A DNA stretch of 64,000 bases from Cyanidioschyzon merolae (lineage: Eukaryota): assembly GCA_000091205.1 (NCBI GenBank), contig AP006502.2; one strand, 5' to 3'. A program made the position numbers and the translations under genes. Shown piece by piece: positions 1 through 57,300 of this stretch (position 1 is the stretch's first letter; every line of letters starts with the position of its first letter). The notes under the pieces were generated by a model. It was not told the origin of the DNA, made no database searches, and was given only the letters and a program-made list of their open reading frames with translations.

Positions 1-1076
1 ACGCACCAGCTTGCTCGTGTGGTCTTGAAAATACCAGGATGCAGTTCCAAAATATGTCCGATGACGCGACCTGCCATCTTCCACCGAAATTGCAACGATA
101 GCGTTCCGGGGACTCCGCAATCGGTATAAAGCACAGGGACGTCGGTTTGGTTTCTCAGTCGATGGGAACTTCTTCGGACGAAACGATTGAAGCGTTTGGG
201 GGGTTTCGCGGAGCAGGCAGCCTATTCAATGTAGGATCGAATTGGAAGAGAACGAGAACATCAGCATCTGTTCGAGCTGCAGTAGATACATTTGGCGGCT
301 TCTGCTACGCTCGTAGAGAGGGCCCATGCAAGAGCACAAACCACTCTGTCGAACCATAGAAGACTTTTCGCCTGACGTCTAGCAGCGTCCTTCGATTCGA
401 TCGCGCGTCATTTCACCGTTTTCCTTGCGTTCGAGCTTTTTCGGATTCCTTTGGGGTTGAGCTGCATTTCATTCCTTCGTACGCTCCGTGTTTTAACCCA
501 TTCGAATGGGTTTTTCTATTGTGAAACGTAATGATTGCTCCACTGGGAGAATCGCGAAGCGTTCGGCATACGGTGACACACCAGAGACACATTTCATCTT
601 TTTTGTGCAAGTACTTCTTCCTCCAAGAATATCCTCATCTAAGGACACACAGACCTGTGTTCATTTTAGAAAACTTAAAGGATGAGCTGGGGCCTGCACT
701 TCAGAATGTCGTGATGGAGAGGCGGTAGCGGGGCGCATCGTCGATAGAATACCACGGTGAGCTGGGAGAGCACCAATTGACACACAGGATACGAGTTCGA
801 GGACTTGTCGCATTGGTGAGTACCGCCAGCGGCAAGAAACGCTTCGAGTTCGTGCACCAAGACTCTAACGCCGCCATCCATATCAGAAGGTATACAGTGC
901 TGAAGACGATACCAACAGAGCGGACGGAATGCAACCTTGAGGGGCAGCCTCCCAGGCTCGAAAAGTGCAATCAGAAGCTGAAACTGATAGCAGGGGGCCG
1001 GTCGAAGAAGGCTGAAAAGTGTCTCCACGTCGGTATTGCTTTACTGTATGGTCGCGGAATGTTCTCGCTCCTCTGA
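1..1076 (+). pseudogene. TnpB/Fanzor-like (IS605 OrfB-family RuvC fold) copy 1. 3' two-thirds only: 5' end lies outside the window and in-frame stops interrupt it (three same-frame ORF pieces 147-359, 531-728, 777-1076)
   Basis: All three pieces lie in frame 0. 'VFILENLKDELG' resembles the RuvC-II ivlEdLn motif. 'FEFVHQDSNAAIHIRR' resembles RuvC-III DxNAAxNI. Collinear protein similarity to copy 2 (42919-43695) includes the conserved C-terminal 'GGRSKK..LHVG'. TAG at 726-728 is in frame. Confidence 0.5.
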
Positions 1077-4468: not shown

Positions 4469-4639
4469 GGACGAAGCACGTTAGCAGAGCCATACGGGCG
4501 GTATTCGCCATACGCAAACCCAGACGCTCTGAGGCCCACGCGCCTGCTGCGCTTCGTCGGCAATCGCGTCGATGATTTTTTTTCCGATGACAAAACATGT
4601 ACATTAATTCATGGATTCCGGATTGTGAGAGGGATATTG

Positions 4640-29813: not shown

Positions 29814-30455
29814 TCAAATAATCGGTTTCGTTCCAGAGTCAAATCCTCCCTGCTTTCTGTCCAGAGATGAAAGCGGATTCGACAGCAGCGGCATGGTACC
29901 TCTCACGTGATATGCTCCTGGTAGCTCCCGTCTCTTCAGTTTGCATGGAATGAGATCTTTGACTCCGACTTGAGTCATAGCAGTGATCGCTTTCTGTGAA
30001 GCATCCGTCATCGCGTTGTACGAAGAAAATCTAGAAGAATCGAAATTTCTCGACTTGTTCTGCAGTTGGGATTTCCCTCCGGATGCTCGGTTCATCGCGG
30101 GCAACATTGCGTTCCACGAATCCCTGATTGAATGGAACAGCGTGCGCTCGCGCGTGCACCAGATAGAGTACTCGTCGAGGGAATCCTCCAGAAGAAACCC
30201 GTGATCATGTAGAGCGGCATCGTGTGCGGAAACGGAGGAGAGCATCGAAAAGAGCCTTCTGTTCTCATGAAGGTCATGTACTGAGCTTTGCAGCGAGCAT
30301 TCATGCGCCACAGGCGAGTGTTCAGAGCTGGAGGTGGTGTCGCGGGCATATGAGAACACCTGACCACAGCCATGTGCCACCGTTGTGAGGCGCGTACCGA
30401 GGCTGTACACAAACAATATGAAACTGGAGAGCGACGCTTCGATCGCAGCTCCCAT
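29814..30455 (-). CDS. ORFan paralog family member B, the only copy with an ATG at the family start. Hydrophobic N-terminus (possible signal peptide or anchor)
   Basis: 'MGAAIEASLSSFILFVYSLGTRL..GQVF', 'DEYSIWCTRERTLFHSIRDSWNAMLPAM', 'KLKRRE'. ATG verified at 30453-30455. Confidence 0.5.
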   Translation of the reverse strand: MGAAIEASLSSFILFVYSLGTRLTTVAHGCGQVFSYARDTTSSSEHSPVAHECSLQSSVHDLHENRRLFSMLSSVSAHDAALHDHGFLLEDSLDEYSIWCTRERTLFHSIRDSWNAMLPAMNRASGGKSQLQNKSRNFDSSRFSSYNAMTDASQKAITAMTQVGVKDLIPCKLKRRELPGAYHVRGTMPLLSNPLSSLDRKQGGFDSGTKPII

Positions 30456-31506
30456 CTCTGAATGAAATGCGCCAACAAGTACCTGACGCTGCGAAATCGG
30501 GACATGAATGCCGCTATCAACATCGCTCGAATGCCGGCAACGGAACTATAGGTCCTGGGGAGACCGGCGTATTTCAAACTGGAGATAAGACACGGAAAAG
30601 TAACCAGTCTCAGAAGAAGCTCCCACGGTCTAATGTTGATTACAATTGTAAGAGTCCTAAACTTTACAGTGCAAGCGCGAGATAGCTGAGTGAACCCCTT
30701 TATTTTAGTCTGACATGCGTCTAGAGCCCGCACCAGAAATCGCTGTCCATACTCAGCGATTCAGTTCGGCAGCGGGTAAGCATCGCGAGTGTATCGAGGC
30801 GGTAAGTATTCTGTTTATCGAAAGGGCATGTACTTTGAACACTTGCTGTCTCGAATACAGTACGTCAGCATCATAGACAGCTTTCTCGTCTGCACCGTGC
30901 CGGCAACGTTTCCGAGCATCCCATTCAGATAGCACGGATCACCATATGAGCGGATGTCTTAGCACGACGTATAGCATCGGTTCATACACTATTATCGATT
31001 AGTACGAGAAACCATGCCACAGCGTCGCCGATTTTCCCGCCAGCGATGCTGCACGCACGGCGGAATGCGCACTGGTCGCATCCGATCTGGCTTCGAGAGT
31101 TTTTCAGCAGGTGCGATCAGCAGCAGCAACAGCAGCAGCCGATACTGTGCCCAGAGGCCTTTGACAGCTATTACAGACCCTTCTCTTGCGCTCGGGAAGG
31201 ATCGAGAACTTAATTCCGGAGATCAAGAGAAACGCTGGCGTCCATGGTCGCCCATTCGCCCGGAGCGGTGACAGCTAGCTGTCCCTCGAGATCGAGTAAG
31301 AGGCAGCATTCCTCAGCGAGGTGCTTGCTCGACCAGCATATCCGGGCATTGGACTTCAGTTCCCAGCGGATTCAAAGTCTTGTGCACTGCATGTCATTCT
31401 CCCGCACAGAGCCGAATTGGCGCGGCGTCAAGGCACCGGATTATGTCCTACGCATGCCCTGAAGCATGTATACGTGGACACGGCGCTGAAAAGAGCACCA
31501 AAGTAC

Positions 31507-34262: not shown

Positions 34263-36951
34263 GAGTTTCGTATGGCGGTACCAAGTGACTGCTACCTTAA
34301 AAGCAAAATATAGTTGTCTCGGAGATATAGACGTGTCTCGATCCCGAGCACAGAGCACAGCGGCTCCATCACGATCGCGTTTTGTGGACCTCGTTGATGC
34401 AAAATCGACACAACGAGCTGCACAGCGTATCGAGTGCTGGCTGAAACACGTCCGTGTCGCGACGGTCTTGGCGGCCGCGATGTACTGTCCGTCAAGGGCA
34501 GACAGGTCGCAAATTGTTCGACGCTACGTGATTGATGTACGGAATCGGGTGCTGCGGCGTTCGTGATATCCATCGATACGCAGGTATGTGACGACCGCTA
34601 TCCCTTAAATCTGGAAATAACCCATAAACCCAAAACCATTATTTTCGTCGGGAATAAGTGTGCGATCCATGCGATAAGTGTTGCTCTCCGGTGGTGTCTC
34701 TTTGTCAGGTGATGCGCACGGAAGCGAGGCCCTTGCACCGCGAAGTCGTCGTACGTTTGGCGAGAAGTCGAAGGTAAGCACCAAGGTTTCGGTGGTAATG
34801 TTTCGAGGATATTCGATGTTCTCGAAGATTTTTTTCGAAGTTTGCGTATGTGCCGTCTACGCTCCGGGATGCGTGCTTCATTCTGTAGGAGAAATCATGT
34901 TTGCACGTGAAGGCTGGGCTGCTCCAGATCACCTCGTATTTCCATGGACCGCTCGAGGCTACAGATGCAGTTGCGAGCGATACGTTCTTTTCCCTAGTCC
35001 TAGTGGGGTAAAATCAATCGCGGTACCGACGCAGAAAAGAGTCGGTCTCTCATGCACGCGCGACGTGTGATGGATAACTGCGACAGAGCGCTGCATATGC
35101 TGAGCTGCTCGTTAACTGACGCTTGCTGTTGGGAACAGTTTCATGGTGGCATGAGTTCCGTTCCTCAAGGAAGAGTTTGATGTGCTGTATCATGGTCAAG
35201 ACCCGAGAAATTCGTACGTGTTGATCCAGAGCTTTATGCCAGCTCCATGGAATTCACGTCTCCGAGTATGCGATGATTGAGCTCCCGAGCCGATGGGAAA
35301 CGAGGCTGAACGACTCGAGCATGCGGGTTGATCCGGCTTAAAAGCGCACACTTAAAATTGGGCGCACGGCAAAGGACAATACCATACACGCCGTCAGCAG
35401 CGCTATTCAAGCAAGAGAAATCCAACTGCTCTGTGACACAGCCGTCTGGCCCCGGAGCTATTTACGCCGGCAAGCGGATACCACACAGATGCGCTGGCGG
35501 CACTGTCCGATGCATCCATGAGGATATGAGTACTCCAAACGAAAGCATGGACGTTGGAACGGGAGCCTTGCAACCAGAACAAGAAACGAGAGCCCGGTTT
35601 GGTCGCTGCAGTTGTTTGCAGTTGAAGAAAGGTCTGCAGTGAGGCGGCGGACTTTAGAAGCACAGGGATCTGTAAAATACTTGACCAGTCAATGTACGTT
35701 GTAGCGTCCGGCAAACGCGATACGCGAAGCCCGCCAGGAAAAAGGATAACACTGCAGATACACCGTACTGCGATATCGTATCCATCACAGCGAATCCGAG
35801 AGTCCAATCAGGCAGGGTCCCGTTTCCGCGGGAAACGCCGCGCAAGATATCAAGAACGCCGTGCAGACGACGTGATCAGGGCAGATACGTACACCGAAGC
35901 GTGGCTGCCAGCCATGCGCTCTTGGAGGCATCAGCAGTGTGCTCAAGTAGTCGTGACGCATGTCTTGGCTTCGAAATAAGTTCTGGGATTATCAAGTTGC
36001 GTGGATATGTATCCATTGAAATCTTGAAGTGAAATGCGGCATTCCGTTAGGGTACACAACGCCAAAATAAGCGTTCAAAGCGCACGCGGGTGTCCTGAGA
36101 GGCACGGTAGATGGCCCCGCCGTCGTGTCCTCGCACCACTGCAGCAGACGAGGCCGCTTTATTGGGAACACGGTGCCTAGCGTGATCCAGGCTGTTTTAT
36201 GCAAGAGAACATACCTGGTCAACCTGCCTCTGATTCGCTTCAGGAAACCGTCAGACTTGGCAGCATCAGGCTAGTGCGCGCGCCACGTGACTGCTGGTGT
36301 GGTAACCAGCAGCGCTAGTCTCTGCTCCGTTTCCAATTTTATACAGTGCGAACTTCTGCCTTCCTGGATGCGGATCAGCAGCTGTTTCCTTCCACATGAA
36401 ACTTAAGCGGCCAGATCAGAAAAGCATTTCATCGGTTATCAGCACCTTTATACGGAGTTTAGGGGTTCCCGTCTATGCTACCGTCGAAAAAATCATCATT
36501 TGCTGCACCGCCACGTTTTTTCAAAGTGCCCCCAAAACAAAGCTCCGACTAGCGCAGCTCCGTTTCACTCGCGTGCATCGCTGGACACGTCCGCTACGTG
36601 AGGCACCACGCAAACCTTGCTGCACCTCAGCATAGCGGAACAAAAGCTTTGACTTCAAACTCGACTGGTGCGCGCAGAAACAGTACGGACATTATGCCTT
36701 CGTCGACGATGTGCGCAGGCCAGCAACTAGACCAATACGCGTGCGCCCCAAACGGATCCAGCTGCGAAATGTATAATACTATATATTCACGAATATAAAT
36801 GTACTTTTCTTGACACATCCGCGGCGAGCACGGCGCGTGGCGTCGCGCACCGACTCCTCATCGTTTGTCCTAACGCTGGTAGACGAGTCTACAGTTCCGG
36901 GTATACGCGCTTTGCGAGCGTATTCCACGAGTGAGTCGCGTAGCGCCAAAG

Positions 36952-37353
36952 ATGGGTCGCGTTCGTACCAAGACGGTTAAAAAGTCAGCGCGCGTTATCA
37001 TCGAGAAGTATTACTCGAGGCTATCCGCGAATGATTTTCACACAAACAAGCGCGTGTGCGACGAGGTCGCCATCCTGCCCTCGAAAAGGATGCGGAACAA
37101 GGTAGCTGGCTTCATCACCCATTTGATGAAAAGAATCCAACGGGGTCCAGTGCGAGGAATCTCACTCAAGCTTCAAGAAGAGGAGCGAGAGCGGCGCATG
37201 GACTTTGTGCCCGACGTGAGCGCCGTGAACACGGAAACCATTGAGGTCGACCCGGACACGAAAGCAATGCTTCGGTCCATTGGGCTTGGCTCTATGTCTG
37301 GTGTTGTCGTGATCCAGCCAGGCGAGCGGCGCCCGTACCATACTAGGAAGTGA
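36952..37353 (+). CDS. RPS17: 40S ribosomal protein S17 (eS17)
   Basis: '[39 protein letters not shown]' is the canonical eS17 N-terminus. ATG at 36952. Confidence 0.85.
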
Positions 37354-39076: not shown

Positions 39077-40470
39077 CTATAGACCGACGTGCAGACGTCT
39101 CCCCGTCTTTTTGGACCAGCCACCTACTACTGGTTTCAACTCCTTCCCGTACAGTTCGACCCTGAGGGGTTGCCCCATAAAGCTGGATCGCGTCAGTCCC
39201 AGGGGTCTTCTTTGCAGCACCGCATATCAACTGACATTGATGGCGGCTTTGAAGTCTCGGTTCACAAATTCCATGCGTTTCTTGCTGGCGCCGCTGCTTG
39301 TACTCACCAGTGTAAATCATCCTCGAAGTCGTGGCGTCAGTGCTACACCAGTATCGTCGTCGCCGTCCCGTCGGGCAAACACCATTACTGGACTATCCCC
39401 CTACTTCGTCTTCGCCACTTGCTCTTTTCCGCTCGATGGTCGGCGAAAAGGGGAATTTTTCGTTTCCTTTCCGGGAGCCGGCGATGATGGCCCTTCAGGA
39501 TCCCCGACTTTCATATCCATACCTTTTCCTTGGGGTTTATCTCTTCAAATGAACGCACTTCGAACGCGTCTGCTATAAACCGCGAATAAGCATTTGGTGA
39601 CGCACATCTGGATGTGAATCACAATCGAGATGAAATCCATAGCATTGAACTCCTGTGCCATCGGAGCACCGCGAATGTCTGGCACGCGAGGCGCCCAGGG
39701 GACTGAGGTCCGTCCGCCCTACACCAGGGTTGCTGACCCGAACGCTGCGTACCGGAACCGCGAAGGAGCTTGCCAACTCCTTAGTCAATAGTTTGGTTGG
39801 GTTGTATTGGCGTACGCCATATTCGCCTGACTGCGTTGCAAGGTAGCGTAACTGCTTTTGAAACGGAGCTAGCCCTGGTCCATGGTTCGAACGTTGCGGG
39901 CGTGATGCGCGGCCCCATGCCCCGGAGGTTTGCCATTGAGGGCTTCAAGTTCTCGCTCAATTTGATCGTACCGTTTTGCGCTGTTGTGTTCTTTGGTTCC
40001 AGCGATCACTCCTGGCTCGAGCAAGCTGTCGAGCGGTGGCGCTACGTCCAGTATCCCGTCAACGAAGAGTCAACGCTGACCTCCGCTGAAATCACAAGAA
40101 GGGTGTTTAAACAGCCGAAAACCGGGGCAGCTGAGGACCATCGAAAGTGAGCGAGTCTCGCGAAAGGGCGCCGCCCTTGCGCCTTCCGGAAGACACCCGT
40201 CTGGTCACTCCCGATGAGGTTCTGCAATGTTGCTGACGATCTCAACAGCAGGATGCGTGGATGGAAGCGTGGGCTTGCATGCTCGTCGATACCTGAAATC
40301 GAAGAATACCCAGGCCTGCGCAGATAACAGCATCGGTTCAGAAGCCAAAGTCGCAGTCTCCAAAAGCAGATAAGAAATGACCTCGGAACGGCCGGCTGTC
40401 AGACACAGGCACCAGCCACCGCATATCGAAGAAGCTCGCTGGCCTCTATTAGACATCGTCATCTTACCCG
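39077..40470 (-). pseudogene. TnpB/Fanzor-like copy 3, degenerate (at least two in-frame stops, frame changes). 5' extent uncertain
   Basis: Minus-strand translation gives 'TLVSTSSGASKKRMEFVNRDFKAAINVS*' (RuvC-III-like), then 'QPLRVELYGKELKPVVGGWSKKTGRRLHVGL*' collinear with copy 2's C-terminus. Upstream piece 'ARLAHFRWSSAAPVFGCLNTL' parallels copy 2 'ARLRKNFYCGKQRAFANFFNQL'. Confidence 0.5.
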
Positions 40471-40789
40471 AACGCTCACATCATTCCTTGTGAAAAAGCC
40501 ATGGACAACGTAACGCCGAGATCGAGGCCTCTGTGCTGCATAATGCTTGCAACGAGCACGTTGGTAATGTCTGGTGTCAGCGATTTCTCCCAAGCGCCAC
40601 AAGAGATAAACGATTGTATCTCAAGAGCTCACATATAGGGAACGGCTTGCCTCGTTCAGCGCTCGCTTCGAAATATTTTTAGCCCTGTCTGCGAGGCGAC
40701 AACGCGTATCGTAATGCAGATTTTTCTCTTCGACAGAACCTTGGCACAACCTAGCTATCCCCGATCGCAGCGCCTGTTCGCAGCGCACA

Positions 40790-41265
40790 GGGAAGCATCA
40801 ATCGTTCCACCTGCTTCCAAATTCCACAAGCCGTGCTTTCCCCCGAAGGAACCAGTAATTTTTACGCCATATCGTGCGCCGAGTGCATGCTGTGAACACC
40901 AGCCGTAGCGCCTAAACCGCTGGAGCAGGTGCATCACGGAGACGGAACTGCTCAGGCGCACCACTGAATGCGGTGCAACCAGGGCCACCAGCAGACGCTG
41001 CCTAAGCATCATTAGTCCCGGAATAAACCGCTTTGAAGACGAGTAGAGCAGGTCTCGCAACAGCACCTGCCACTGGGGGGATGGGTATGAAGCACGAGCC
41101 TGGGAGACTCGTCCGGCTCGCTGGACATTCCCTCGAGAATGTAAAGTTTCAGCAATACGGAAACCTTTCCCCTTTTTGACGTTTATCGTAAATGGGGAAC
41201 GAAATTGTTATATCGTTGCAATTAAGTCGTGAGTCTCTGTTCTTTTTCCTATAGTGCGATCGATA
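40790..41265 (+). repeat. Degenerate ~0.5-kb dispersed repeat, copy B (partner at 4640-5235). Lies about 250 bp upstream of the first candidate 5' exon of Fanzor-like copy 2
   Basis: Collinear DNA similarity with copy A. Reading frame equivalent to A's 98-aa ORF is broken by a TAG (40906-40908, W to stop) and a 123-nt deletion. Confidence 0.6.
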
Positions 41266-42166
41266 GGCGCACCTGGGATATCTGGCAGTCTCGAGACACG
41301 ACGCTCACGTCACCGTTGAAGGGGAACGCGATCCTGATCGTTATTATGTTGCTCTAATGTACGAGTAGTAGTTACTTTATAATCGTACCAAATTATAGTT
41401 TTTCAGGTCTATTGTGTTTCAGCCCTCAGGTTAGTATACTCAAGTGTTTTTTCGCGGTTTATGACAGAAGCGTTCAAAAAGCGTTCTTGTTCAAGAAACT
41501 AGAAAAGCAAAGTTATGGAAGAGGAAATGGAGGAGCATGAGGGCACAGCGTCGCCGGCTGCCAGAAAAAAACGGAAAGCATGGCGGAGCAAAGAGGAACA
41601 GGAAAAGACGAAGACGCGGAGGCCGGAGGCCCTACGTCGAAGGCAGCGATAAAGACGACAGTACGACGAGACGGCGGTAAAAGCCTGTCTTCTTACGCAT
41701 ATCAAGGATCCGTACAGGAGAAACCTGCGAGATGCCATCAGAAACCGAGTCGATTCGTACTCCAGGAGTGTTCGTAACGCCTCTTCAGGACTAATGCATT
41801 TGGTGAAGGAGATGTATCGCGACGTGGTGGATTCGAAACCTTCGAGATTACGGAGGAATTTTTCAACATGACCTTTATTCGCCACCTGATGGTTGGCAGA
41901 GGGGAAGCGTCGAAGAAAATGAGCGAGTGGAAGCCCTCCACAAAAAATTACGCCAAATGCCGCGTCGACGCTACTCTATACAAGGTTGATGCGGATATTT
42001 ACACCTACGGTGCGATGAAGAACCATTTGACCATGAACCTCAAACGCTTCATGATACGCGCCGTGTTTGCGCTCTACCCGGGCCTGTCTCGTAGAGGAAT
42101 ATGGACCATCGCCAATTGCATCACAAACGATAGTAAGAATGAACGGGGATCGAATTCGTCGACAAG

Positions 42167-43695
42167 ATGACATCACACGGGAGAAAGAATAAAGATTCCT
42201 TCATCCGCGCGGCTATTCAAGAGCACCGTTCGGTCTTGGGGCTTGTCAACCCAGCAGAAAAGGTATCAGATATGAAAAAAAGATGGAGAAAGATGTTATC
42301 TCCTCATGCTGCGCTATTTCGTGTTTTTGACCGACGCCTCGAACGCAAAACAGAGATGGAGGTAGGTGCGGGACACAAAAGCAGAGTTGGAGCAACGGAA
42401 GGCTACCCTTCAGGCGAAGCGCTTCAACGTCTTTCGGTTATGCAACATCAAGTCGCACTTTGTGAATATCGACTGCAGAGTCGTTCATGGCATCATGAAG
42501 GATATCTGAACGGTGCTCGGTGTAAGCAGGGAGGAGTTCACCGGGGAAAACCGGGAGACGTACTGGAAGCATATCTTCGGCTTCAAACGTGTCAAAACGA
42601 GCAAGCAAAAGTATGCATAGGCATCAGCGAAAGCGATGGAGTAGCCACATGTGTACACTATCAGCGCCTTAGGGTGAATCGTCCTGTTCCGTCTTCAGTA
42701 TCGCCAGTGGCGAAGCATGAGGGAAACAAGAAGGCGGGTCCTACGACGCAGGAGGTGCGGGAGCATGACTTTGTGGTAGGCGCGAACCCCGGAAACACGA
42801 ATATCATGACCATCACAGTACCCAAGCTTGCGGAAGATGGTATTGAAGGCAACCTATGTCAAAAAGACACGCGTTTGTAAGGTTCTAAAGATAGAGACAT
42901 TACTGAGAATCGGGAATAATGAATGCAAGAAAGAAAATTGAGACATGGAATGCACGAGTGAGAGAGCACCTGGAAGCTATGAGCGAGGTGACGAGCCGAG
43001 GAACGGACTTTGGAGCTTTTCGGGAGTTTATGGATGTTCGTGTTGCCCATTGGGATGCACTGTGGGAGGAGTATACCAAGCCCCGGTGGGCTCGTCTGCG
43101 AAAGAATTTCTATTGTGGGAAGCAGCGGGCGTTCGCGAATTTTTTCAATCAGTTGAGTGCCCCGAAGGGGGACGAGAGTCAGAGGCTCGTAGTAGCGTAC
43201 AGAGCAGGGCGCTGGAAGATTCAAAAAGGGTGTACGCCAGCTCCAACGACGAGGGTGTACAAGGAGTGCGCACGTCGTTTCGTTACAATACCGATAGATG
43301 AGTTTCGAACATCGTATACACACCATGAGCTGGGTTGTACACTTCAGAGAGTGGAGATGCAAAAGTGCCAGAGGAGCCCTGAGGATATAGCAAAGTACGG
43401 AGCGCTGACGGAAGAGCAAATGGAAAGGAAGGCGAAAGTTCGAGGGCTACTCGCATCAGTGAATACAACGAACGGGAAGAAACGGATGGAATTCGTGAAC
43501 CGAGACTTTCATACCCCTATCAATATCAGGAGATGTGCAGTGCTGGAGAAAAGACCTCCAGAGTTGACGAGAGCCAACTTTGTTCGACAACCTCTCGAAG
43601 TCGATTTATATGAGAAGAAGTTGGAAGCAGTAGTAGGTGGCCGGTCGAGAAAAACGGGGAGGCGTCTGCACGTCAATTGGCGACTTTTTGTCTAG
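42167..43695 (+). CDS. TnpB/Fanzor-like (IS605 OrfB-family RuvC fold) copy 2. Two exons (42167-42876, 42930-43695) joined across a 53-nt intron. Possible further 5' exons (Lys/Arg-rich NLS-like ORF at 41515-41652; ORF 41868-42170) not resolved
   Basis: 'FVVGANPGNTNIMTIT' fits RuvC-I vGiDlGixNlaT with D to N. 'ARLRKNFYCGKQRAFANFFNQL' is the conserved inter-motif region. 'PIDEFRTSYTHHELGC' is the TS motif with zinc-finger Cys replaced. 'GKKRMEFVNRDFHTPINIRR' is RuvC-III-like with D retained. Splice joins ...KDTRL|KKIETW... in frame. Confidence 0.55.
42877..42929 (+). other. Putative 53-nt spliceosomal intron (GTAAGG...AG) inside Fanzor-like copy 2
   Basis: The stop TAA at 42878-80 lies inside a consensus donor GTAAGG at 42877-82. 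AG at 42928-29 restores the downstream frame (phase 2). The joined protein is collinear with TnpB architecture. Confidence 0.45.
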
Positions 43696-43771
43696 GGCGG
43701 GTTTCTCGCCACTACTGTACACCGCGGGTATCAACGTTTTTCTTCTGAAAGGCGTTTGTTTTCAGGAGTGG

Positions 43772-45799
43772 ATGTCTTCCAGCAACACTGGGGTTCGTGT
43801 GCCCGCAGCCGCAAGTGACGTAGAAAGCACGGACACCGGCTATGAGCAGGATGAGGAGCAACTACCGAACCAGCAAGATAGTGAAGCAACGGATCCGGAA
43901 GTTCAGTTTGATGGCGGTACCGATTGGCTGAACTCTTCAGAGGCGGAACCAGTGGAGCTGTCGCGAGCGTATTCTGCTCCAGAGCCGCTGGATGAAGGGC
44001 CCAAACCGAACTTACTGGATATTTCATCTGCGTGGGGTCAAGACTTTGTAGAGCGAGCTGATTCCGAGCTCGAGAGCTACGCCGAGGAGCACCCAGGCCC
44101 TGAAGAACACGGAGCGTCGCAGCAAGAGAGACAACGTTCCAGGTCGTATCTGAGAGCGCTACGAGCGAAGATGGACCGTACCTGGCGTGCAGACTGGACA
44201 CATCGCCTGGGACGCACACTTGACGGCACGGTGGACAGAGCCCGGCCCTACTGGCGCCACCTACGAAGCTCGAGCGGCCTTCGACGTCGGGTGCTTTCTC
44301 GTTCGCCGTCGATGCTCCTTCAGAACCTGAACCACAGCCGCAAAATCATCGCTCGCAAGTCCGTGGAAGCAGCTTCTGAAGCTGCCGAGTTTATATCGTC
44401 ACCAACGCTACTATTCCGACCTGCCAAGATGGCGTTCGCTATTGCGTTCCCTCTGCTCATACCGCTGTTAATCACCCCGTGGCGGATTCTGTTGATCCTC
44501 TTCGTTTTTTACGCCGTCTGGTATCTTGTGGTCGCCGCGATTTTCGCAACAGAGGTGATGATGCGCCCGCCCTGGTACCGAGTTGGACTAGGTGGGCAAC
44601 TGCCGATGGTGGAGATCCCTCCGTACTGGCGCGGCGTTTGCCACAATCCGAAGCAGGATCTCCAGTTGGACTACGTTTCGGTTTCGTTTGAGTCTTTGCA
44701 TCCGCCTCGGCGGACACTGCGCGGCTGGTATATCCCCGCGGAAAGCACTGGAATGACTTTCGAGTCTGGGTCCGAACAGTCAGCCCCTGAAACGGGTGCA
44801 GCAAAACCCAGCGAGGCGAGCAGCGCAGACGCACCGAATCCACATGCAACAACACCGTCTGGTGAGCACGCGACGACGAGTCGCAGCCGAGGCACAACTT
44901 CGACGGGTCGGACCTGTGTAGTCTGTGTGCACGGGGCAGGTCGAGATCGCCGAAACTTCCTGCGCCACGCTGGCGCACTCCACCGCCACGGTTATGATGT
45001 GTTGCTGTTCGACCTCAGCGAGCATGGTCTCAGTGACGGGTCTGGTCGAGGAACCACTTTTGGTGCTCGAGAAAAATATGATGTGCTGGCGGCTATAGCG
45101 TATGCCTACAATGCCCTGCAAGCGGAGCGAATCGTTCTTCTGGGGACTTCAGCGGGAGCCTCTTCCTGCCTGCTCGCAGCAGCTGAATGGATCCGTTTGC
45201 ATCGATTCCTGAAACTGCAAATCGTCGGGCAGCGGCACGAATCATCGCAAGCGCTTAGTGAACAGCATTCTCTTGATTTCCCGGTACAGTGCATCATTGC
45301 AGAGAACCCGCTGGCCCGACCTGACGAACTCTTTATCTTCCATCTGGAGCGCCTCTCGCTCAACTACCTGCCAAAAGATTCGTATCATCTTGCGCGGAAG
45401 ACACTCTTCTGGTTTGCAAGCAGAGTGCTGCTGTTTCGTCTCGCATGGGTAGACCGCGAACCGAGCGCCGTACCAGGGTCTCATTTGCGCCGGCTCTGGG
45501 TAGTGATCAGCACCCTCAGTCGAGTGCTCGGAGGACGGACGCGCTGCGGCGCAGTCGACGTCATGACCGACATTCATTGTCCGTTGTTCGTTTTGCACGG
45601 CACCGGTGATGAAATCGTGCCCGTCGACCATGGCATGCGCATCTTCGCAGCGGCTAACGAGCCCCGTCAGCTGTGGCTCGCTCCGGACGCGGCACACTGT
45701 GCCCTGTTCGATCAGTATCCAACTGAGTGGGAAAATCGGGTTGTGGATTTTATCGAAAAGAGCCTGAGCGAAGAGTCGAATGCGAAATCAAGATCCTGA
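43772..45799 (+). CDS. Alpha/beta-hydrolase fold protein with long N-terminal region containing hydrophobic helices
   Basis: 'CVVCVHGAGRDRRNF...HGYDVLLFDLSEHGLSDG' is oxyanion-hole/HG-like. 'LLGTSAGASSCLLAAAE' is a nucleophile-elbow-like GxSxG variant. 'LHGTGDEIVPVDHG' is the Asp/His region. Start placed at first ATG, because the track start is GTG. Confidence 0.6.
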   Translation: MSSSNTGVRVPAAASDVESTDTGYEQDEEQLPNQQDSEATDPEVQFDGGTDWLNSSEAEPVELSRAYSAPEPLDEGPKPNLLDISSAWGQDFVERADSELESYAEEHPGPEEHGASQQERQRSRSYLRALRAKMDRTWRADWTHRLGRTLDGTVDRARPYWRHLRSSSGLRRRVLSRSPSMLLQNLNHSRKIIARKSVEAASEAAEFISSPTLLFRPAKMAFAIAFPLLIPLLITPWRILLILFVFYAVWYLVVAAIFATEVMMRPPWYRVGLGGQLPMVEIPPYWRGVCHNPKQDLQLDYVSVSFESLHPPRRTLRGWYIPAESTGMTFESGSEQSAPETGAAKPSEASSADAPNPHATTPSGEHATTSRSRGTTSTGRTCVVCVHGAGRDRRNFLRHAGALHRHGYDVLLFDLSEHGLSDGSGRGTTFGAREKYDVLAAIAYAYNALQAERIVLLGTSAGASSCLLAAAEWIRLHRFLKLQIVGQRHESSQALSEQHSLDFPVQCIIAENPLARPDELFIFHLERLSLNYLPKDSYHLARKTLFWFASRVLLFRLAWVDREPSAVPGSHLRRLWVVISTLSRVLGGRTRCGAVDVMTDIHCPLFVLHGTGDEIVPVDHGMRIFAAANEPRQLWLAPDAAHCALFDQYPTEWENRVVDFIEKSLSEESNAKSRS

Positions 45800-47539
45800 T
45801 TCGGCCCTATGCAGTGCAATTGCTTGACAAATGCGAACGCTTCAGCTGAGCGAAGGACGCTTGCACCCGGCAGATACGCAAGGGCCGCACCACAGACCCC
45901 GGCAAGCGCCTCGTGCCGCAGGCCCGTGCTGCGACACCGACGAGGTACTGGGAATCTTTCGAAAAGGCTCGTGCGTGACGAGCTATGCGACGCTGTACCG
46001 TTCTGAACAGAGGGCAGCACGAATCCAGGGATATTGGCGGGAATGCCGCGTTTTGTGCACGTGCAAGCCGTCATGCTTGCGTGCACTCGCACAGAGACAA
46101 CACCATTGATCATCGACGTTGTCGTCGGTGGTCGCTTCCGGTCACATCAATAGAATCCACTCGAATTTCAATACGCTTGAATGCTTCGTGGTCCGGAATC
46201 GCTCCGACATTGTCGCCGAGAACCTCGTACACCAGGAATCAGAGCCGAAGCTTGTCAGTCGACTCACGAAGCAACGAATTAGTTTCCCGCTTGGCGATGA
46301 TCGTGGACAATATTCCAGAGTGCAGCGCGTTGCTGGGGCAGCTCTTAACAAACAAAGCACATCCAGCAAAGCTACTTGAGCGGATGCAGCACAATTCTCG
46401 GGTCCGATGCAGCGCCCGGAGCATGCACCACCGTCCACGGGCAGGCACCTGTTAACACTATCGCCCAGAGCCTGCATGCACTTCACAGGCGCTTTGCCGG
46501 TTTCCACGAGTCGAAGCTCATGCAATGCCAGGCATCAGGAGTACGTGGTGGCGACAACAGCTGCCTTGCGTCCCATTCGCCAGGGTCGTATCAGGGGCTG
46601 TGGCCGACGCTTCGTTCCAGCGCCTGGGCTCGTGTGCCATCTGCTGCCACAGCTGAGCTGTCGTGCGTGTGCTCAGAGTCACTGGGCACGATGCTTAGAT
46701 GTAGACAACGATACATTTGGTTCCGCACATCCACACAGTCGCACTGCGTTTCCCAAAGCGGATGACGCACATCCATGCCACTGGTCGCAGTCTGCGCACG
46801 AACAGAACAATCAGTAGTTATGGTGCCGGTGCCAGCGTCCGCAACCTGATGTCTATCACACGTACGGCTTGTTGTAGGCAGTGCAGGCATGTTGCCACAT
46901 GAGGATTCGTACCCGTTTCTTGGATGGGCAGAAAGCGAGCGTGAACGGGGCATCCCCGAATGCACGTCTGGGATCAACGACCGGGAAATCGTCCAGCATT
47001 CCGCGCACTATCTACCTCGAACTTCCACTACCCGTACTTGCCCTCGAAGATACTGGTCATTTCGTATGTTTCATCGTTCGTCGAGTCTACCTTGAGCGTC
47101 CGTCATAGCGTCAATGCGAACGCAGCTCGGAAACCGACCGGTTTTGCTTGCATCCGCGGGAGAGCGCACTATCGTCGCCAACGGTGTGCGAAGTTGCCTC
47201 GCGACTATTTCACTACCGCGGACAAGCACTTCATTCGACACGAAAGTGTAGACATTCTGTGGATCATGGCGACTGCTGCGGGTCGCTTCATGCGGTCGCA
47301 TGTGCTACTAGCTCCGTTTGGCGCACCGGAGCTCCAGGGCATCGGGTGTGAGAATCTGTGCAAGTTCGCATAAAGAGTTGGAACGTATTGCCACAGCGTG
47401 CTGTAGAATTTGCGACTACAGCGGTTCCGGCTTCGTGAGGCATTCCAGAAGCTGCTCGTGCCGCACGAACGCGATGTCAGCGTTATCGCTTCTAGCGCAG
47501 AGCACCTGCGACTACCACGCACGGAACCGAACTCCAGGT

Positions 47540-53743: not shown

Positions 53744-54314
53744 AAAATAATGGAACAGTGAACTGCTCGTTCTGGTCCTGTATTTCCATTTGTTTCCGAT
53801 CTTGTTCTTGATAAACAGTTCAACAACCGTACAAGTGCAGTCAGGGCTTTCAGAATCATAGGTCGTTTGAGGCTGGTCGGTTGTCTGTTCAGAGAGGCGC
53901 TTTCAACGCACTGACGCTGGGATTCCCTATACCACCGGTATCAGGATGACTCGCGCCACTGCTGAACAGGGGTTCGTAAGAAACCGGACACCATGATCGA
54001 AATCGAACGTGCAAGCCGCCAATCTTTTAATCTTCTTACGTGTGGCGTGCTTGGCTCACGCATGCTTCTAACTATCGATGTCTCCGTTTCGAAGCAACTC
54101 GTGAGCGCAACGAGCCACGTCAGTGACTGGACGACGAAAAAACTCGGCATCATTCTCTGACGACTCGATTGCAAGCTCACGCCGAAAGTTCACGGAAAGT
54201 TTCACGTCGAAGGATCGACTTCGCTCGGAGCAGAAATCCTCCTCGCTTTGTGGCCATCGATGAAACGGCATTCGACGGCACTAGCATCTCGATGCCTCTC
54301 AGGGGGTATGCTCC
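53744..54314 (+). repeat. ~570-bp dispersed direct repeat, copy A (about 97% identical to 62463-63024)
   Basis: Base-by-base comparison shows only a few single-nucleotide differences and one 1-nt indel. ORFs inside (53941-54180, 54068-54271, 54169-54396) are duplicated in copy B and likely spurious. Confidence 0.85.
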
Positions 54315-57300
54315 CAAAAGTTTTTTACCAAAAGGAATGTATCGTAAAGACAAAAGTCAGAGTGTTCGCGAAAGAGCCTTATGCTGTGTCTGCTAGATAG
54401 CAGAAATTGGCCTCACATGTGTTGGTCAGTCGTTGTCGGGTCAGCAGCAGCATGATCCCCGCTAATTTCAGTCCTTATTCTGAACATTGATCACTCAAAA
54501 CAGCATGTATCAAACGTGTTCCACGCGACCGTCTCCTTGTCAATCACTTCCATTGCATACGTTCGCCAGGAAATGCAGTCAGACAAGCCACCAGGTGTGA
54601 GAATTTCATATCCTAATTCTCTACGGTGATCAAGGGACACGGGTTGGCAGCGAATGCAGCACTGATACCGCAGAACATCCCGTGTTGAAAAACCCACCAA
54701 CTTTTTTTCGAACTACGACGCGAACTATTATTATGAAAGGACCATGTGTTCCTCTCACTCGATTACATGTCATTTGGACGAGCTGCTAGACCTCGATACG
54801 GCCAGTTAAATCAAGGCAAACCCATGTTTGTCAAGAAGAGACAAGCGAGCATTCGGACAACACCAGCCCTGGCAGTGTTCGAATCATGCGGTCGCCTGCA
54901 AATCGCCAAACGAACAGGGTCGTTCAGCACCTCTTCCTTCTTCGGAACATGCTTCGTGGCTTCTGCTTCCGCAATCTTCTGCCCTGGTCGTAGACAAGGT
55001 CGCTTTGCATCACCATAAAGCGGCAAAGGAGTATCCTGATAGGATAGGCTTTGAGCTGCTCTTCGTGCGACGCCATGCTCTCTGGTTCAGTCCCATTCAA
55101 GGCATGCGTATTGATGGCATACGCCTCTTCTGGTCTCGCGGATCACTAAACGGGGCCTATGCATCCGTGACACCGAAATATGCAATATAAAATATAGGAC
55201 TGCGAAGTTGCTTACTCATGCAAGTCTCGTCGAACTCCGTTCGCTTTGATGCACCTCGTCAAGCAACGATGAACAGCCGTTCCAGAGGCCCGACTGCCAG
55301 CGGCCCCATTCCTCAGAATACTTTCCATCAGACGCCCGTGCGACTACACATCTGATGCTCGGGACAGGAGATGCAAGCGGTCTGGTCATTGGATCAGCAC
55401 TTTGAACACGCACTTCCCAGAAAACCCTGACGCCTCGCTGCGACACCACGGCGATCGATAGACCCACAGCGCAGGTGCTCTGGAATCTCATGCCAACCTC
55501 GAGCCGAAAATCAAATGTTAATGAAAGACGAGCGCTTCGCATGGAGCGCCATGTGGGCGTCAGATCCTCGTCTTACTTGCCCAAACAAGTGGAGACAACT
55601 CGGAGCGGCGCCTCTGGTGTGGATCGAGGCAAATGACCAGTTGGTGTGAAAGAAATAAAAGTGGCAGCGACCTTGGGCGAGAGATGTCGCAACGAGAGTG
55701 CGCGTCGCTTCAGATCGTCTACGCCCGTGTGCTGCTCTCTGCTTCGCAATGATGGATGCCGTATTCCGAGAATAGATGAAATCTGGTGCCTGCTTTGCTT
55801 GCATTTTCCGCTACGGTATTTTCGTGGACCGAACCCGCCAGAAAGAAAGCAGATCCAAGCTCTCTATGCCTACGTCCTCGCTTTCTGAGGCAGTTGTTCA
55901 AAATGATCCCCTCTTTGCCAGACCGGGGCCCATTCGATTCCCGTCGACACTTGTTCCCTGTAATGTACACCCTGCTCCTTGGGGTGCTTCCGGTCTACAC
56001 AACCAAGTATGACGCGATCGAATCAATCCACATAGAGCATCGGCGCAGCTGGTTCAAAGTCTCTGGTTTACAGGGAGGAAATCGGAACCAGTCTACAACG
56101 ACGACAGAAACCGATGTCATTTCCATCTGCATGCATTTTGTTGTGAAACCTAGGCCTAACTCGACCAACGATACCCATTTTTTAACCGCTCAAGCCCGAT
56201 ACAGGGAAAAGCTTCGATAGATACGCGTGGATCCTGAGTTTCGGAACATCACACCCGCTACCGAGCGCTTCATAATCCAGGAAGTAGCCTAGGACACGGA
56301 CGGAAAGCAGATCAAGTTGTTCGACTTTTCCAAAACTCGATATTTCCCGAGTTGCCGCTCGACTGTAACGCGCGGAGGCGTACCAACAGGTGAACTGGCG
56401 GCGTCAGAGCCCAGCTCAACGCCCTGAGCACCGTTTCGAGCGGACACGGATGTTGTACGATTCATTCATACTGTACGTGGGCGTCCAAATGGCTCATGTC
56501 GATGACTTATGGCAGAAGGATATGCACTTGCGCTGGTGTCGGGAACGATCCCGGCTGTACGGAGGCAGCTAGCGTGTATCCACCGACTTTTCAATGCGTT
56601 GGAAACGCGTATGACCGATATGGCGCGTCGTTCGGTGGTGGCATCTTGCGCTGGACCTGTCGCAGAGCACAACGTCTGCAATCGTGCTCCTTCGACCAAC
56701 GTGTGCAACAAGCGTGCGGGCCGATTCTGCACGACTTTTATCGATGCGTCTAGAATGACATGACACACATCACGAACTTTTGTGCGCGAAGACGCTTTTA
56801 GAAATGAAGAGCGTGAAATAGCGCCGGATGCATGAGACGATGTATAGGGCAGGCTGGCCGAACCTCAGATGGCGAGGCACTCGTATATGAGAGGCTCGGT
56901 ATGGTGGGGCTTCACAGGCAACAACGCTTGCCAGTAGGTTCTCAACGGAAACTCTAATGCTTCGGTGAACATCTGGAAATATCTCGTGCTTTCGAAGAGA
57001 TTCGGGCGGGTTCGTATCTAGCGAACGTTCCAGGTAAGCATATAATGCGAGCGCGGGCACGATGCTGAGACGCTGAAGACGTGCGATGACAAAATTTATC
57101 CAGCCAGGAGACAGGGACAGAGAACACTGGATTCTTGCCTGGTGCGACGCACTCTAGCGGCACGTCTCAGCAATCCAGAACGGCTCTAACGCCGCGTATA
57201 TACAACGGGAAATGTTGTCCTTGGCAATTGGTGTGAATGATTACGGCGTTTCGTTATTCAGCATTACCAAATATATCCTATCTGATTCCAAATACATGTC

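What the first reader, a model, noticed from the sequence alone, without database searches (positions are those of the whole stretch)
39077..43695. 3'-terminal ~70 nt of the Fanzor-like ORF is nearly identical between copies 2 and 3 although the rest is about 70% identical: candidate overlapping guide-RNA (omegaRNA) scaffold
Collinear gap-free DNA alignment of about 165 nt before the stop codons. Identity rises to about 90% over 'cagtagtaggtggc(c/t)ggtc...aaaa(g)acgggga(g/a)(g/a)cgtctgcacgtc' (copy 2 about 43630-43685; copy 3 revcomp of about 39080-39140). In IS200/605 and Fanzor systems the omegaRNA scaffold overlaps the 3' end of the nuclease gene, so extra constraint there is expected. The protein C-terminus (GGRSKK..LHVG) is also conserved, which could equally explain it. 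Downstream of the stops the three copies share no obvious sequence.
Basis: inference. Interest (0 to 1): 0.6.

Follow-up and report, generated by a model that had tools for sequence, protein, structure and literature searches.

The report
Dead Fanzor transposon copies; structured tail
The two similar stretches are the ends of two decayed copies of a red-alga transposon described in 2013 (CMe-1A, which carries a Fanzor nuclease gene); their extra similarity comes from a conserved protein tail, and the better guide-RNA candidate is a folded 66-base non-coding tail just after the stop codon.

Summary
It is not significant once the choice of window is allowed for (permutation p=0.29).

Both copies are dead relics of the known Fanzor1 transposon CMe-1A of Cyanidioschyzon merolae (Bao & Jurka 2013). 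Copy 2 (40788-43762) is frameshifted and has RuvC-I D->N. Copy 3 is an internally deleted fragment with stop codons.

Across 51 independent copies from metagenomes, synonymous sites in this segment are no more conserved than in the rest of the ORF. The last 100 nt of the ORF fold no better than other ORF windows. The conserved motif VVGGRSKKTGRRLHV explains the identity.

New here: conservation continues about 66 nt past the stop (43696-43762) and then collapses at the transposon's right end. This tail holds a small hairpin, a conserved linker (ACTACTGTACAC) and a long terminal hairpin rich in G.U pairs and favoured on the sense strand. In position, size and layout it resembles the 75-nt SpuFz1 omegaRNA scaffold. 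It is a plausible, unproven omegaRNA candidate. Covariation is not significant.

The parts
40788..43762 (+). Copy 2: a near full-length CMe-1A-like Fanzor1 element. It is a pseudogene.
   Evidence: blastn to the family consensus: 72-255, 382-2160 and 2221-3245 of 3248. The N-terminal two thirds are broken by frameshifts and stops.
42919..43695 (+). Residual open 258-aa C-terminal ORF of copy 2. It holds RuvC-II (E at 43300-43302) and RuvC-III (D at 43504-43506). The stop TAG is at 43693-43695.
   Evidence: It is 98% identical to P0001. It matches the C-terminus of the published CMe-1 protein.
42785..42787 (+). The RuvC-I catalytic Asp codon is mutated to Asn (GANPG in place of the family's GADPG).
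   Evidence: and the consensus.
43629..43674 (+). The segment of raised identity in copy 2. It encodes AVVGGRSRKTGRRLHV.
   Evidence: 41/46 identical to copy 3. The differences are 3 non-synonymous and 3 synonymous.
39086..39131 (-). The counterpart of that segment in copy 3. It encodes PVVGGWSKKTGRRLHV.
39083..39327 (-). Copy 3, 3' piece (consensus 2921-3162), with in-frame stops. Its tail (about 39082-39040) is of another subfamily and resembles L082.
39456..39635 (-). Copy 3, 5' piece (consensus 764-941). It is joined to the 3' piece by a deletion of about 2 kb.
682..1034 (+). Copy 1: a decayed 3' fragment with an in-frame stop.
43677..43695 (+). Position of the small hairpin that spans the stop codon in the family (GGAGAC-loop-GTCTAG). 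It is weakened in copy 2 (GGCGAC).
   Evidence: Family alignment: 81% of cells paired and one compensatory A-U to G-C case.
43696..43710 (+). Tail hairpin 1: GGCG-GGTTTCT-CGCC.
   Evidence: Stem identity is 0.94-1.0 and loop identity 0.45-0.67 in 51 copies. 82-93% of cells are paired.
43711..43722 (+). Conserved unpaired linker ACTACTGTACAC.
   Evidence: Identity 0.84-1.0. The core (stem plus linker) averages 0.935 against 0.813 at four-fold sites, p=0.0014. 10/12 positions are kept in the most divergent subfamily, L081.
43726..43763 (+). Long terminal hairpin that ends at the transposon's right end.
   Evidence: MFE -11.2 kcal/mol in copy 2. Family mean is -16.7 on the sense strand and -11.6 on the antisense strand (p=1.7e-7), with z=-2.3. 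In the 15 variant-2 copies, 89% of hairpin cells (90% counting the small hairpin) are paired. The nhmmer tail hit is 43696-43762, E=2e-16.
43764..43780 (+). First bases of host flank. If the tail is an omegaRNA, this is where the guide would lie. This is inference only.
   Evidence: Family conservation falls to background after about +62 to +68. The host hydrolase ATG is at 43772.

Best explanation
The region holds two dead, divergently oriented relics of the Fanzor1-carrying transposon CMe-1A of Cyanidioschyzon merolae, or of a very close relative.

The locally higher identity at the end of the ORF is a modest fluctuation. It sits on a protein motif under purifying selection in the active source lineages: the basic C-terminal peptide VVGGRSKKTGRRLHV, which may be a nucleic-acid contact or a nuclear-localisation element. 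It is not a signal of an RNA gene inside the ORF.

The element does carry a conserved non-coding module, but it lies downstream of the stop. It is a tail of about 66 nt made of a 4-6 bp hairpin, a conserved linker of 8-12 nt, and a hairpin of about 40 nt whose base coincides with the right end of the transposon.

By analogy with SpuFz1, I infer the following. In active copies the tail is transcribed with the gene and cut out as the scaffold of an omegaRNA. The next ~15 nt of flanking host DNA then serve as the guide for the Fanzor nuclease.

What is shown:
- the family identity of the copies;
- the decay of the window copies;
- the absence of extra synonymous constraint in the ORF end;
- the extent of the tail, its predicted fold and its strand bias.

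What is inferred: transcription, processing, protein binding and guiding.

In this window nothing can be functional. Copy 2 has lost its reading frame and its RuvC-I Asp. Copies 1 and 3 lack this tail.
For: Family identity:
- The consensus protein rebuilt from 26 loci ends ...VVGGRSKKTGRRLHVSWRRFV, and where I compared the two by eye it runs in parallel with the published 734-aa CMe-1 protein.
- The published 3169-bp CMe-1A consensus ends with the same tail.
- BLASTP against the Fanzor1 PUl-1 aligns RuvC-II and RuvC-III collinearly, E=5e-6.

Decay of the window copies.

Protein rather than RNA constraint in the ORF end:
- Codon periodicity across the ORF is 0.91/0.94/0.83 for positions 1/2/3.
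- There is no excess at third or four-fold positions in the segment.
- The segment is not an outlier between subfamilies.
- Fold z for the last 100 nt of the ORF is -0.52.

The tail:
- Conservation runs to about +62/+68 and then falls to 0.3-0.4 in 51-53 independent loci.
- 84 of 85 tail hits sit directly behind an ORF end.
- Fold z is -2.05 for 0..+66 against -0.22 for the flank.
- The sense strand is more stable than the antisense strand.
- Two sequence variants of the terminal hairpin both fold.
- The tail core is more conserved than four-fold sites.

Precedent:
- The distal part of its stem 2 is dispensable.
- The GtFz1 omegaRNA overlaps 17 codons (PMC10432273).
Against: - There is no expression data.
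- Covariation is not above the shuffle controls: 0.132 against 0.124, 0.108 against 0.091 with 33/500 shuffles as high, and 0.163 against 0.176. The preserved pairing rests largely on one-sided transitions through G.U, and on a G/T-rich 3' arm that can pair promiscuously.
- As a whole, the tail (mean identity 0.78) is not more conserved than four-fold sites (0.81). Only a core chosen after the fact is.
- The loop of hairpin 1 varies, whereas the corresponding loop in fungal Fanzor1 omegaRNAs is conserved.
- Other subfamilies (L082 and copy 3) have a different tail.
- No Rfam family matches.
- The exact right end is uncertain by about 7 nt: +61 from the L012/L035 break against +66/+68 from conservation.
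- In the last 60 nt of the ORF the three codon positions are almost equally conserved (0.87/0.89/0.86). A short RNA overlap is therefore not excluded.
Confidence: 0.6

Rival explanations
1. One reading: the omegaRNA scaffold extends well into the ORF, covering the last ~70 nt, and this double duty raises nucleotide identity there.
For: - The ISDra2 TnpB and GtFz1 omegaRNAs overlap the ORF.
- Codon periodicity flattens in the last 60 nt.
- CAGTAGT in the ORF (about -66) is complementary to ACTACTG in the tail linker.
- One 5'-truncated fragment keeps just the last 35 nt of the ORF plus the tail (L053:1120-1222).
- The post-stop tail of 66 nt is shorter than the 75-nt SpuFz1 scaffold.
Against: - Synonymous-site tests are negative at two levels.
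- Window rank between subfamilies is 10-24 of 62.
- Fold z is -0.52.
- RNAalifold finds only a 6-pair wobble helix with no compensatory change.
- The long-range ORF-tail helix is broken in L081 and shows no compensation in the copies that vary.
- A 71-nt Parasitella omegaRNA, guide included, shows that 66 nt can suffice.
Confidence: 0.13
2. The tail is a DNA-level or mRNA-level signal of the transposon and not a guide RNA. It could be a right-end hairpin recognised in trans by a transposase or recombinase, as in the IS200/IS605 subterminal hairpins or the Helitron 3' hairpin. It could also be a 3'-UTR or 3'-end-formation element.
For: - The element has no long TIRs or known TSDs, and no transposase of its own (PMC3627910).
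- The left end (GACAAAACGTTT) resembles both arms of the right-end hairpin (GACAACGTTT / CGTTTGTTGTC).
- The hairpin sits exactly at the terminus.
- Covariation typical of a structured RNA is not demonstrated.
Against: - 5 of 16 pairs in the variant-2 hairpin are most often G.U, and sense folding is 5 kcal/mol better than antisense. This argues against a double-stranded or cruciform signal.
- It does not exclude a top-strand ssDNA hairpin.
- In SpuFz1 the omegaRNA spans the terminal repeat, so the two functions are not exclusive.
- The termini do not fit Helitron (no CTRR end).
Confidence: 0.2
3. Nothing functional: the extra ORF-end identity and the tail are just sequence inherited from a common ancestor element that decays neutrally.
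For: - The copies are old (about 80% identity to the consensus) and mostly dead.
- Mean identity of the tail is at or below four-fold sites.
- The scan-corrected p for the copy 2/3 observation is 0.29.
Against: - Conservation within the tail is strongly uneven: stems and linker 0.94-1.0, loops 0.45-0.67.
- The core exceeds four-fold sites, p=0.0014.
- Fold z is -2 only in the tail.
- There is a strand bias.
- Codon periodicity shows that much of the divergence arose under selection in active lineages.
Confidence: 0.07

Closest known systems
CMe-1A / CMe-1 Fanzor1 element of Cyanidioschyzon merolae (Bao & Jurka 2013, Mob DNA 4:12, PMC3627910)
   Same: Same family. The consensus protein and the 3' DNA end, including the tail, match the published consensus. 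The copy number and age pattern also match: about 150 copies, about 80% identical to the consensus, about 3.2 kb, no TIRs.
   Different: - The published consensus stops at +59 after the stop codon. Here conservation and pairing run about 3-9 nt further.
- A conserved T-rich motif lies 5' of the published left end.
- That paper predates the discovery of omegaRNAs and does not analyse the tail.
- The window copies are decayed members, and copy 3 is from a divergent subfamily.
SpuFz1 omegaRNA (Spizellomyces punctatus Fanzor1; Saito et al. 2023, PMC10432273)
   Same: [quoted passage not shown]
- It is about 75 nt, made of a short stem-loop, a short conserved linker and a long stem 2 whose distal part is variable or dispensable.
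- Its guide is the flanking DNA just beyond the conserved end.
   Different: - I saw no convincing sequence similarity in a by-eye comparison with the SpuFz1 omegaRNA.
- The CMe tail is shorter (66 nt).
- The loop of its first hairpin is variable.
- The element has no 30-nt inverted repeats.
- No abundant 'ghost' loci were found: 1 solo tail among 85.
- Expression, binding and cleavage are untested.
GtFz1 and ISDra2 TnpB omegaRNAs, which overlap the 3' end of the nuclease ORF
   Same: The GtFz1 omegaRNA overlaps 17 codons.
   Different: Here no excess synonymous constraint or structure is seen in the last 70-100 nt of the ORF. At most, a hairpin of about 17 nt spanning the stop would overlap.
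Subterminal hairpins of IS200/IS605 ends and the 3' hairpin of Helitrons
   Same: A strand-specific hairpin at the very end of an element that lacks TIRs and TSDs. The left end shares a short motif with the hairpin arms.
   Different: No HUH or other transposase is encoded. The termini do not match Helitron (TC...CTRR). No target motif has been established.

Membership tests
CMe-1A transposon family (C. merolae) | Encodes the CMe-1 Fanzor1 protein. | tested here: met
   The family consensus rebuilt here matches the published CMe-1 wherever I compared them by eye (no alignment was computed), including the same C-terminus ...GGRSKKTGRRLHVSWRRFV. The copy-2 ORF is 75-98% identical to 258 metagenomic relatives.
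CMe-1A transposon family (C. merolae) | The DNA termini match the published consensus. | tested here: met
   The 3' end ...TAGGGCGCGTTTGCCGCCACTACTGTACACCGCTGGCGGCAGCGTTTTTCTTTTGAAAGGCG equals the tail found in 51 copies. The 5' start CGATGACAAAACGTTTAC was found in 23 loci.
CMe-1A transposon family (C. merolae) | Many old copies (about 80% identical to the consensus) with no TIRs. | tested here: met
   265 relatives were found in one scan and 53 non-redundant 3' ends were kept. Identity to the consensus is 0.83-0.94 by codon position. Only a 9-11-nt resemblance exists between the ends.
Fanzor1 / TnpB-like RuvC nucleases | Collinear RuvC-I (D), RuvC-II (E) and RuvC-III (D, RDxNAAxN) motifs. 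| tested here: met
   The family consensus has GADPG ... IPVDEFRTS ... NRDFNAAINI. In window copy 2 RuvC-I is GANPG, so this copy fails.
Fanzor1 / TnpB-like RuvC nucleases | Sequence homology to accepted members. | tested here: met
   BLASTP against PUl-1 Fanzor1 gives E=5e-6 over 182 aa spanning RuvC-II and RuvC-III. CMe-1 is in the founding Fanzor1 alignment. Pfam gives only a sub-threshold Cas12f1-like_TNB hit (E=0.73), and sequence and profile searches of the PDB find nothing.
Fanzor1 / TnpB-like RuvC nucleases | TnpB/Cas12-like fold. | tested here: inconclusive
   The AlphaFold2 model built from the shallow family alignment has mean pLDDT 34. No fold search was run because it would be meaningless.
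Fanzor1 / TnpB-like RuvC nucleases | A CxxC...CxxC zinc finger between RuvC-II and RuvC-III. | tested here: not met
   PUl-1 has TCSCC...RCTNSKC. CMe-1 has THHELGC...EKC only. The finger is degenerate in this family. This lowers confidence in nuclease activity but not in homology.
omegaRNA (OMEGA / Fanzor guide RNA) | Conserved non-coding sequence at the 3' end of the nuclease gene that reaches the right end of the transposon. | tested here: met
   About 66 nt are conserved after the stop, with a sharp loss of conservation beyond.
omegaRNA (OMEGA / Fanzor guide RNA) | A conserved secondary structure on the sense strand. | tested here: inconclusive
   Thermodynamics and strand bias are positive (z=-2.05; -16.7 against -11.6 kcal/mol). 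74-90% of cells are paired against 40-55% when partners are slid. Covariation is not above the shuffles.
omegaRNA (OMEGA / Fanzor guide RNA) | Where the RNA overlaps the ORF, extra constraint on synonymous sites. | tested here: not met
omegaRNA (OMEGA / Fanzor guide RNA) | A discrete transcript whose 3' end extends 14-20 nt into variable flank (the guide). | not testable with these tools
   No expression data are available here.
omegaRNA (OMEGA / Fanzor guide RNA) | A target-adjacent motif next to the left end, matching the nuclease's TAM. | tested here: inconclusive
   A T-rich GATTTTNTTTC motif directly precedes the published left end in 17 or more loci. It cannot be decided whether it belongs to the element or to the target.
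omegaRNA (OMEGA / Fanzor guide RNA) | The RNA binds the nuclease and directs DNA cleavage. | not testable with these tools
   This needs biochemistry.

The most novel reading that the evidence does not exclude
The 66-nt right-end tail of CMe-1A (hairpin, ACUACUGUACAC linker, G.U-rich terminal hairpin) is a genuine omegaRNA scaffold, one of the shortest for a Fanzor1. It would belong to an intron-poor red alga, and its partner nuclease has lost the canonical zinc-finger cysteines.

RNA-guided homing would then explain why an element with no transposase kept coding capacity across about 150 old copies. Bao & Jurka raised that puzzle in 2013.
Probability: 0.4. Interest if true: 0.5.

Novelty: new member of a known kind. 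Interest (0 to 1): 0.3.

Why it matters
As submitted, the finding is ordinary. It consists of two decayed copies of a transposon described in 2013, and a local identity peak that a conserved peptide explains.

The useful by-product is a concrete, testable omegaRNA candidate for a Fanzor1 family, with coordinates and a proposed architecture. As far as the library searches here show, no RNA has been described for this family.

If confirmed, it would add a compact Fanzor1 scaffold from a red alga. C. merolae is an extremophile, which I state from my own knowledge and did not test here. It would also bear on how a transposase-less Fanzor element persists.

The work also shows that a pairwise identity peak between two relics is weak evidence. 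The family-wide comparison both removed the original signal and revealed the real conserved non-coding part.

Tried and rejected
- Rfam, whole window at gathering thresholds and 43300-43900 at E<=5: nothing relevant.
- RNAalifold on 45 copies (-130..+70): only a 6-pair wobble helix inside the ORF, with no compensatory change. Indels in the tail defeat the alignment.
- De novo search for conserved helices by column pairing: dozens of chance 4-6-bp helices among conserved columns, so not informative.
- A long-range helix between CAGTAGT (ORF) and ACTACTG (tail): not kept in L081 and no compensation. Rejected.
- Covariation counts on hand-specified structures for all copies and for the two hairpin variants separately: not above the shuffles.
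- Pfam on the window ORFs and on the consensus, and PDB sequence and profile searches: no significant hit.
- AlphaFold2 on the family alignment: pLDDT 34, unusable, so fold searches were not spent.
- Near-identical copy pairs to fix both termini: only one informative pair, L012/L035, which breaks after GGCGTT.
- Helitron-type termini (CTRR): absent.
- 'Ghost' solo-tail loci as in S. punctatus: 1 of 85.
- Fully intact copies in the fetched loci: none clearly intact. The longest, L012 at 747 aa, has a shifted N-terminus and a lost stop.
- Cyanidioschyzon in the supplements of Saito et al. 2023: no mention in the text held.

Full report
**What is in the window**

The window looks like a compact, intron-poor eukaryotic genome. 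It has an RPS17e gene at 36931-37353 and an alpha/beta-hydrolase gene starting near 43772.

tblastn with the ORF at 42919-43695 finds relics of one gene family at these places:
- 684-1046 (+)
- 5593-5261 (-)
- 24462-23727 (-)
- 39331-39083 (-)
- 42167-43692 (+)
- 56456-57000 (+)

**Family identity**

The 258-aa ORF has 258 relatives at E<=0.001 in public metagenome proteins; the 120 listed are 58-98% identical, most of them 75-85%. One scan of metagenome contigs returned 265 encoding places, of which 80 were fetched (L001-L080).

A consensus built from 26 of these loci encodes a continuous protein of about 734 aa. It has these motifs:
- GADPGNTN (RuvC-I)
- IPVDEFRTS (RuvC-II)
- NRDFNAAINI (RuvC-III)
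- the C-terminus VVGGRSKKTGRRLHVSWRRFV

This is the CMe-1 Fanzor1 protein of Cyanidioschyzon merolae, given in the supplement of Bao & Jurka 2013 (PMC3627910). Their CMe-1A element is 3169 bp, has about 150 copies each about 80% identical to the consensus, has no TIRs, and has undetermined TSDs. Its published DNA consensus has the same 3' end that I find.

Pairwise BLASTP of the consensus against another founding Fanzor1, PUl-1 (translated from the supplement), gives E=5e-6. RuvC-II and RuvC-III align collinearly.

Pfam and PDB sequence searches are blind to the family. An AlphaFold model from the shallow alignment was unusable, with pLDDT 34.

**State of the window copies**

Against the consensus:
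- Copy 2 covers 40788-43762, nearly full length. Its N-terminal two thirds are broken by several frameshifts and stops, and RuvC-I reads GANPG. Only the last 258 codons stay open.
- Copy 3 is two pieces, 39635-39456 and 39327-39083, joined across a deletion of about 2 kb. It has in-frame stops.
- Copy 1 is a 350-nt fragment with a stop.

None of them can be functional today.

**Checking the observation**

The gap-free block 43477-43674 against 39283-39086 is 152/198 identical. The last 46 nt are 41/46 (89%) and the first 152 are 111/152 (73%). So the peak is real, but it is 46 nt long rather than about 70.

Fisher's p is 0.028 for that split chosen after the fact. A permutation test that searches for the best 46-nt window gives p=0.29.

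Of the six differences in the segment, three are synonymous. Identical codons among identical amino acids are 10/13 in the segment and 20/30 upstream. The higher nucleotide identity therefore follows the higher amino-acid identity (13/15 against 30/50). It does not reflect quieter synonymous sites.

**Family-wide test of the interpretation**

In 51 non-redundant copies, identity to the consensus is 0.91, 0.94 and 0.83 at codon positions 1, 2 and 3. Much of the divergence therefore accumulated under protein selection.

- Four-fold sites are 0.80-0.82 along the ORF and 0.84-0.85 in the last 150 nt (p=0.23-0.55).
- Third positions in the flagged 17 codons average 0.851 against 0.832 elsewhere (p=0.36).
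- Between subfamilies (consensus against L082 and L081), the terminal 48-nt window scores 0.81-0.85 against an ORF mean of 0.70-0.76. It ranks 10th-24th of 62 windows. It is one conserved block among several.
- The last 100 nt of the ORF have mean fold z = -0.52, within the spread of other ORF windows, which run from +0.56 to -1.24.
- The peptide GGRSKKxGRRLHV recurs in divergent subfamily proteins P0042, P0075 and P0016.

**What lies downstream**

Contrary to the impression from the three window copies, the main subfamily shares sequence after the stop. Column identity stays at 0.66-0.85 for about 60 nt and falls to 0.3-0.4 by about +66. Anchored on the GGCG of the 3' arm, the next two bases are TT in about 90% of copies. 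The following five are G/T-rich with almost no A, and then information is lost.

An nhmmer profile of the tail finds 85 copies in the held sequence, 84 of them directly behind an ORF end. In the window the only hit is 43696-43762.

The tail has three parts, plus a weak element at the stop codon:
- **Hairpin 1**, GGCG-loop-CGCC. Stem identity is 0.94-1.0 and loop identity 0.45-0.67.
- **Linker**, ACTACTGTACAC, with identity 0.84-1.0. It is kept at 10/12 positions even in the most divergent subfamily, L081.
- **A terminal hairpin of about 40 nt.** It exists in two sequence variants, each extended by an outer stem rich in G.U:
  - CGTTCGA-CTT-TCGAACG
  - AACGTTTTTC-TTTT-GAAAGGCGTT
- **A weak 4-5-bp hairpin**, AGAC-loop-GTCT, spans the stop codon.

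The tail folds with mean z=-2.05, against -0.22 for the next 100 nt of flank. The terminal hairpin averages -16.7 kcal/mol on the sense strand and -11.6 on the antisense strand (p=1.7e-7).

The core, meaning the stem of hairpin 1 plus the linker, is more conserved than four-fold sites: 0.935 against 0.813, p=0.0014. That core was chosen after seeing the data.

**Limits of the structural evidence**

On fixed-register structures, 74-90% of cells pair, against 40-55% when the partners are slid. Covariation scores do not exceed the shuffle controls.

Most changes are one-sided transitions through G.U. The two hairpin variants pair in different registers. The G/T-rich 3' arm can pair with many C/A/G-rich partners.

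The structure is therefore supported by thermodynamics and by position, not by statistics of compensatory change. The tail as a whole (0.78) is not more conserved than four-fold sites.

**Comparison with known systems**

For the Fanzor1 of Spizellomyces punctatus, Saito et al. 2023 showed the following (PMC10432273):
- It has a 75-nt scaffold of two stems and a 6-nt linker, followed by a 14-15-nt guide taken from the flank.
- The distal part of stem 2 is dispensable.

For GtFz1 the omegaRNA overlaps 17 codons. The Parasitella omegaRNA is only 71 nt in all.

The CMe-1A tail has the same position, a similar size and the same order of parts. Its variable region corresponds to the dispensable one. 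I saw no convincing sequence similarity when I compared it by eye with the SpuFz1 omegaRNA, and the loop of hairpin 1 is not conserved here.

I rate 'the tail is the omegaRNA scaffold' at about 0.5. I rate 'the ORF-internal identity peak is protein-driven or chance' at about 0.8.

**Rival readings**

- **A DNA-level end signal remains possible.** The element has no transposase and no long TIRs or TSDs. The left end (CGATGACAAAACGTTTAC) resembles both arms of the right-end hairpin. This is not exclusive of an omegaRNA, because in SpuFz1 the RNA spans the terminal repeat.
- **A longer overlap with the ORF cannot be fully excluded.** Periodicity flattens in the last 60 nt, and one truncated fragment begins at -35.

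**Verdict**

The finding as written is a small identity peak between two dead copies of an already described transposon, and protein conservation explains it. The worthwhile result is the relocation of the guide-RNA hypothesis to a defined 66-nt tail (43696-43762 in copy 2) that can be tested directly with small-RNA data.

Noticed in passing
window about 30300-30550 (+): Relic of a second, different TnpB/Fanzor-like gene. The translation reads ...TTAMCHRCEAR...KCANKYLTLRNRDMNAAINIARMPATEL*, with a CxxC and a canonical RuvC-III motif, interrupted by stops. It is unrelated in sequence to CMe-1.
   Followed up: partly
window 53745-54300 and 62454-63010 (+): A 557-nt direct duplication at 97.8% identity, 8.7 kb apart. 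It surfaced through a chance 13/16 match to the tail motif (CGCCACTGCTGAACAG in both).
   Followed up: partly
window 24462-23727 (-), 56456-57000 (+), 5593-5261 (-): Three more, strongly decayed CMe-1-like gene relics, 30-39% aa identity with stops and frameshifts. With the second TnpB-like relic near 30400, the 64-kb window holds at least seven such relics.
   Followed up: partly
window 4577-5125 (+) and 46984-47147 (+): Pieces matching only the 5' ~550 nt of the CMe-1A consensus. They probably belong to the 635-bp element TE-N2_CMe, which Bao & Jurka say equals the 5' end of CMe-1A. Family conservation dips at about the junction. CMe-1A may therefore be a composite.
   Followed up: partly
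window 43763-43774; ORF call 43637-45799: The first in-frame ATG of the host alpha/beta-hydrolase gene (43772) lies about 10 nt after the transposon's right end. The 5' UTR and promoter of that gene must therefore lie inside the dead element. The GTG start at 43637 listed by the ORF tool is read-through of the transposon tail. The same out-of-frame peptide (GGVCTSVGDFLSRAGFSPLL) ends proteins P0010 and P0020.
   Followed up: partly
L005, L018, L026, L050, L062, L064, L067, L082 and others; window 4566-4584: A conserved T-rich motif, GATTTTNTTTC, lies directly 5' of the published left end (CGATGAC...) in most loci. Either the element is about 11 nt longer than the Repbase consensus, or this is a T-rich target (TAM-like) preference.
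   Followed up: partly
L012:2127-3108 against L035:1-982 (and L036): Two copies are 99.2% identical over their last 982 nt and break exactly after ...GAACGGCGTT (+61). They are only 92% identical further upstream. This suggests recent gene conversion or transposition, and gives a sharp right-end estimate about 5-7 nt short of the end of conservation.
   Followed up: partly
proteins P0004, P0008, P0052, P0069; L012:906-3149: Copies differ in the number (1-4) of a tandem acidic repeat of about 19 aa (DNDFVVDVTKDEDEKEADPATQEV), located just before the RuvC-I motif.
   Followed up: no
family consensus residues about 600-625 (window 43306-43380 in copy 2): CMe-1 lacks the CxxC...CxxC zinc-finger cysteines present at the same place in the Fanzor1 PUl-1.
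   Followed up: partly
L053:1120-1222: The only 'solo' tail found: the last ~35 nt of the ORF plus the complete tail, with unrelated sequence upstream.
   Followed up: partly
L024, L023, L025, L077-L079: Several contigs carry two CMe-1A copies in the same orientation, 3.7-3.9 kb apart (stop to stop), so they are nearly head to tail.
   Followed up: no
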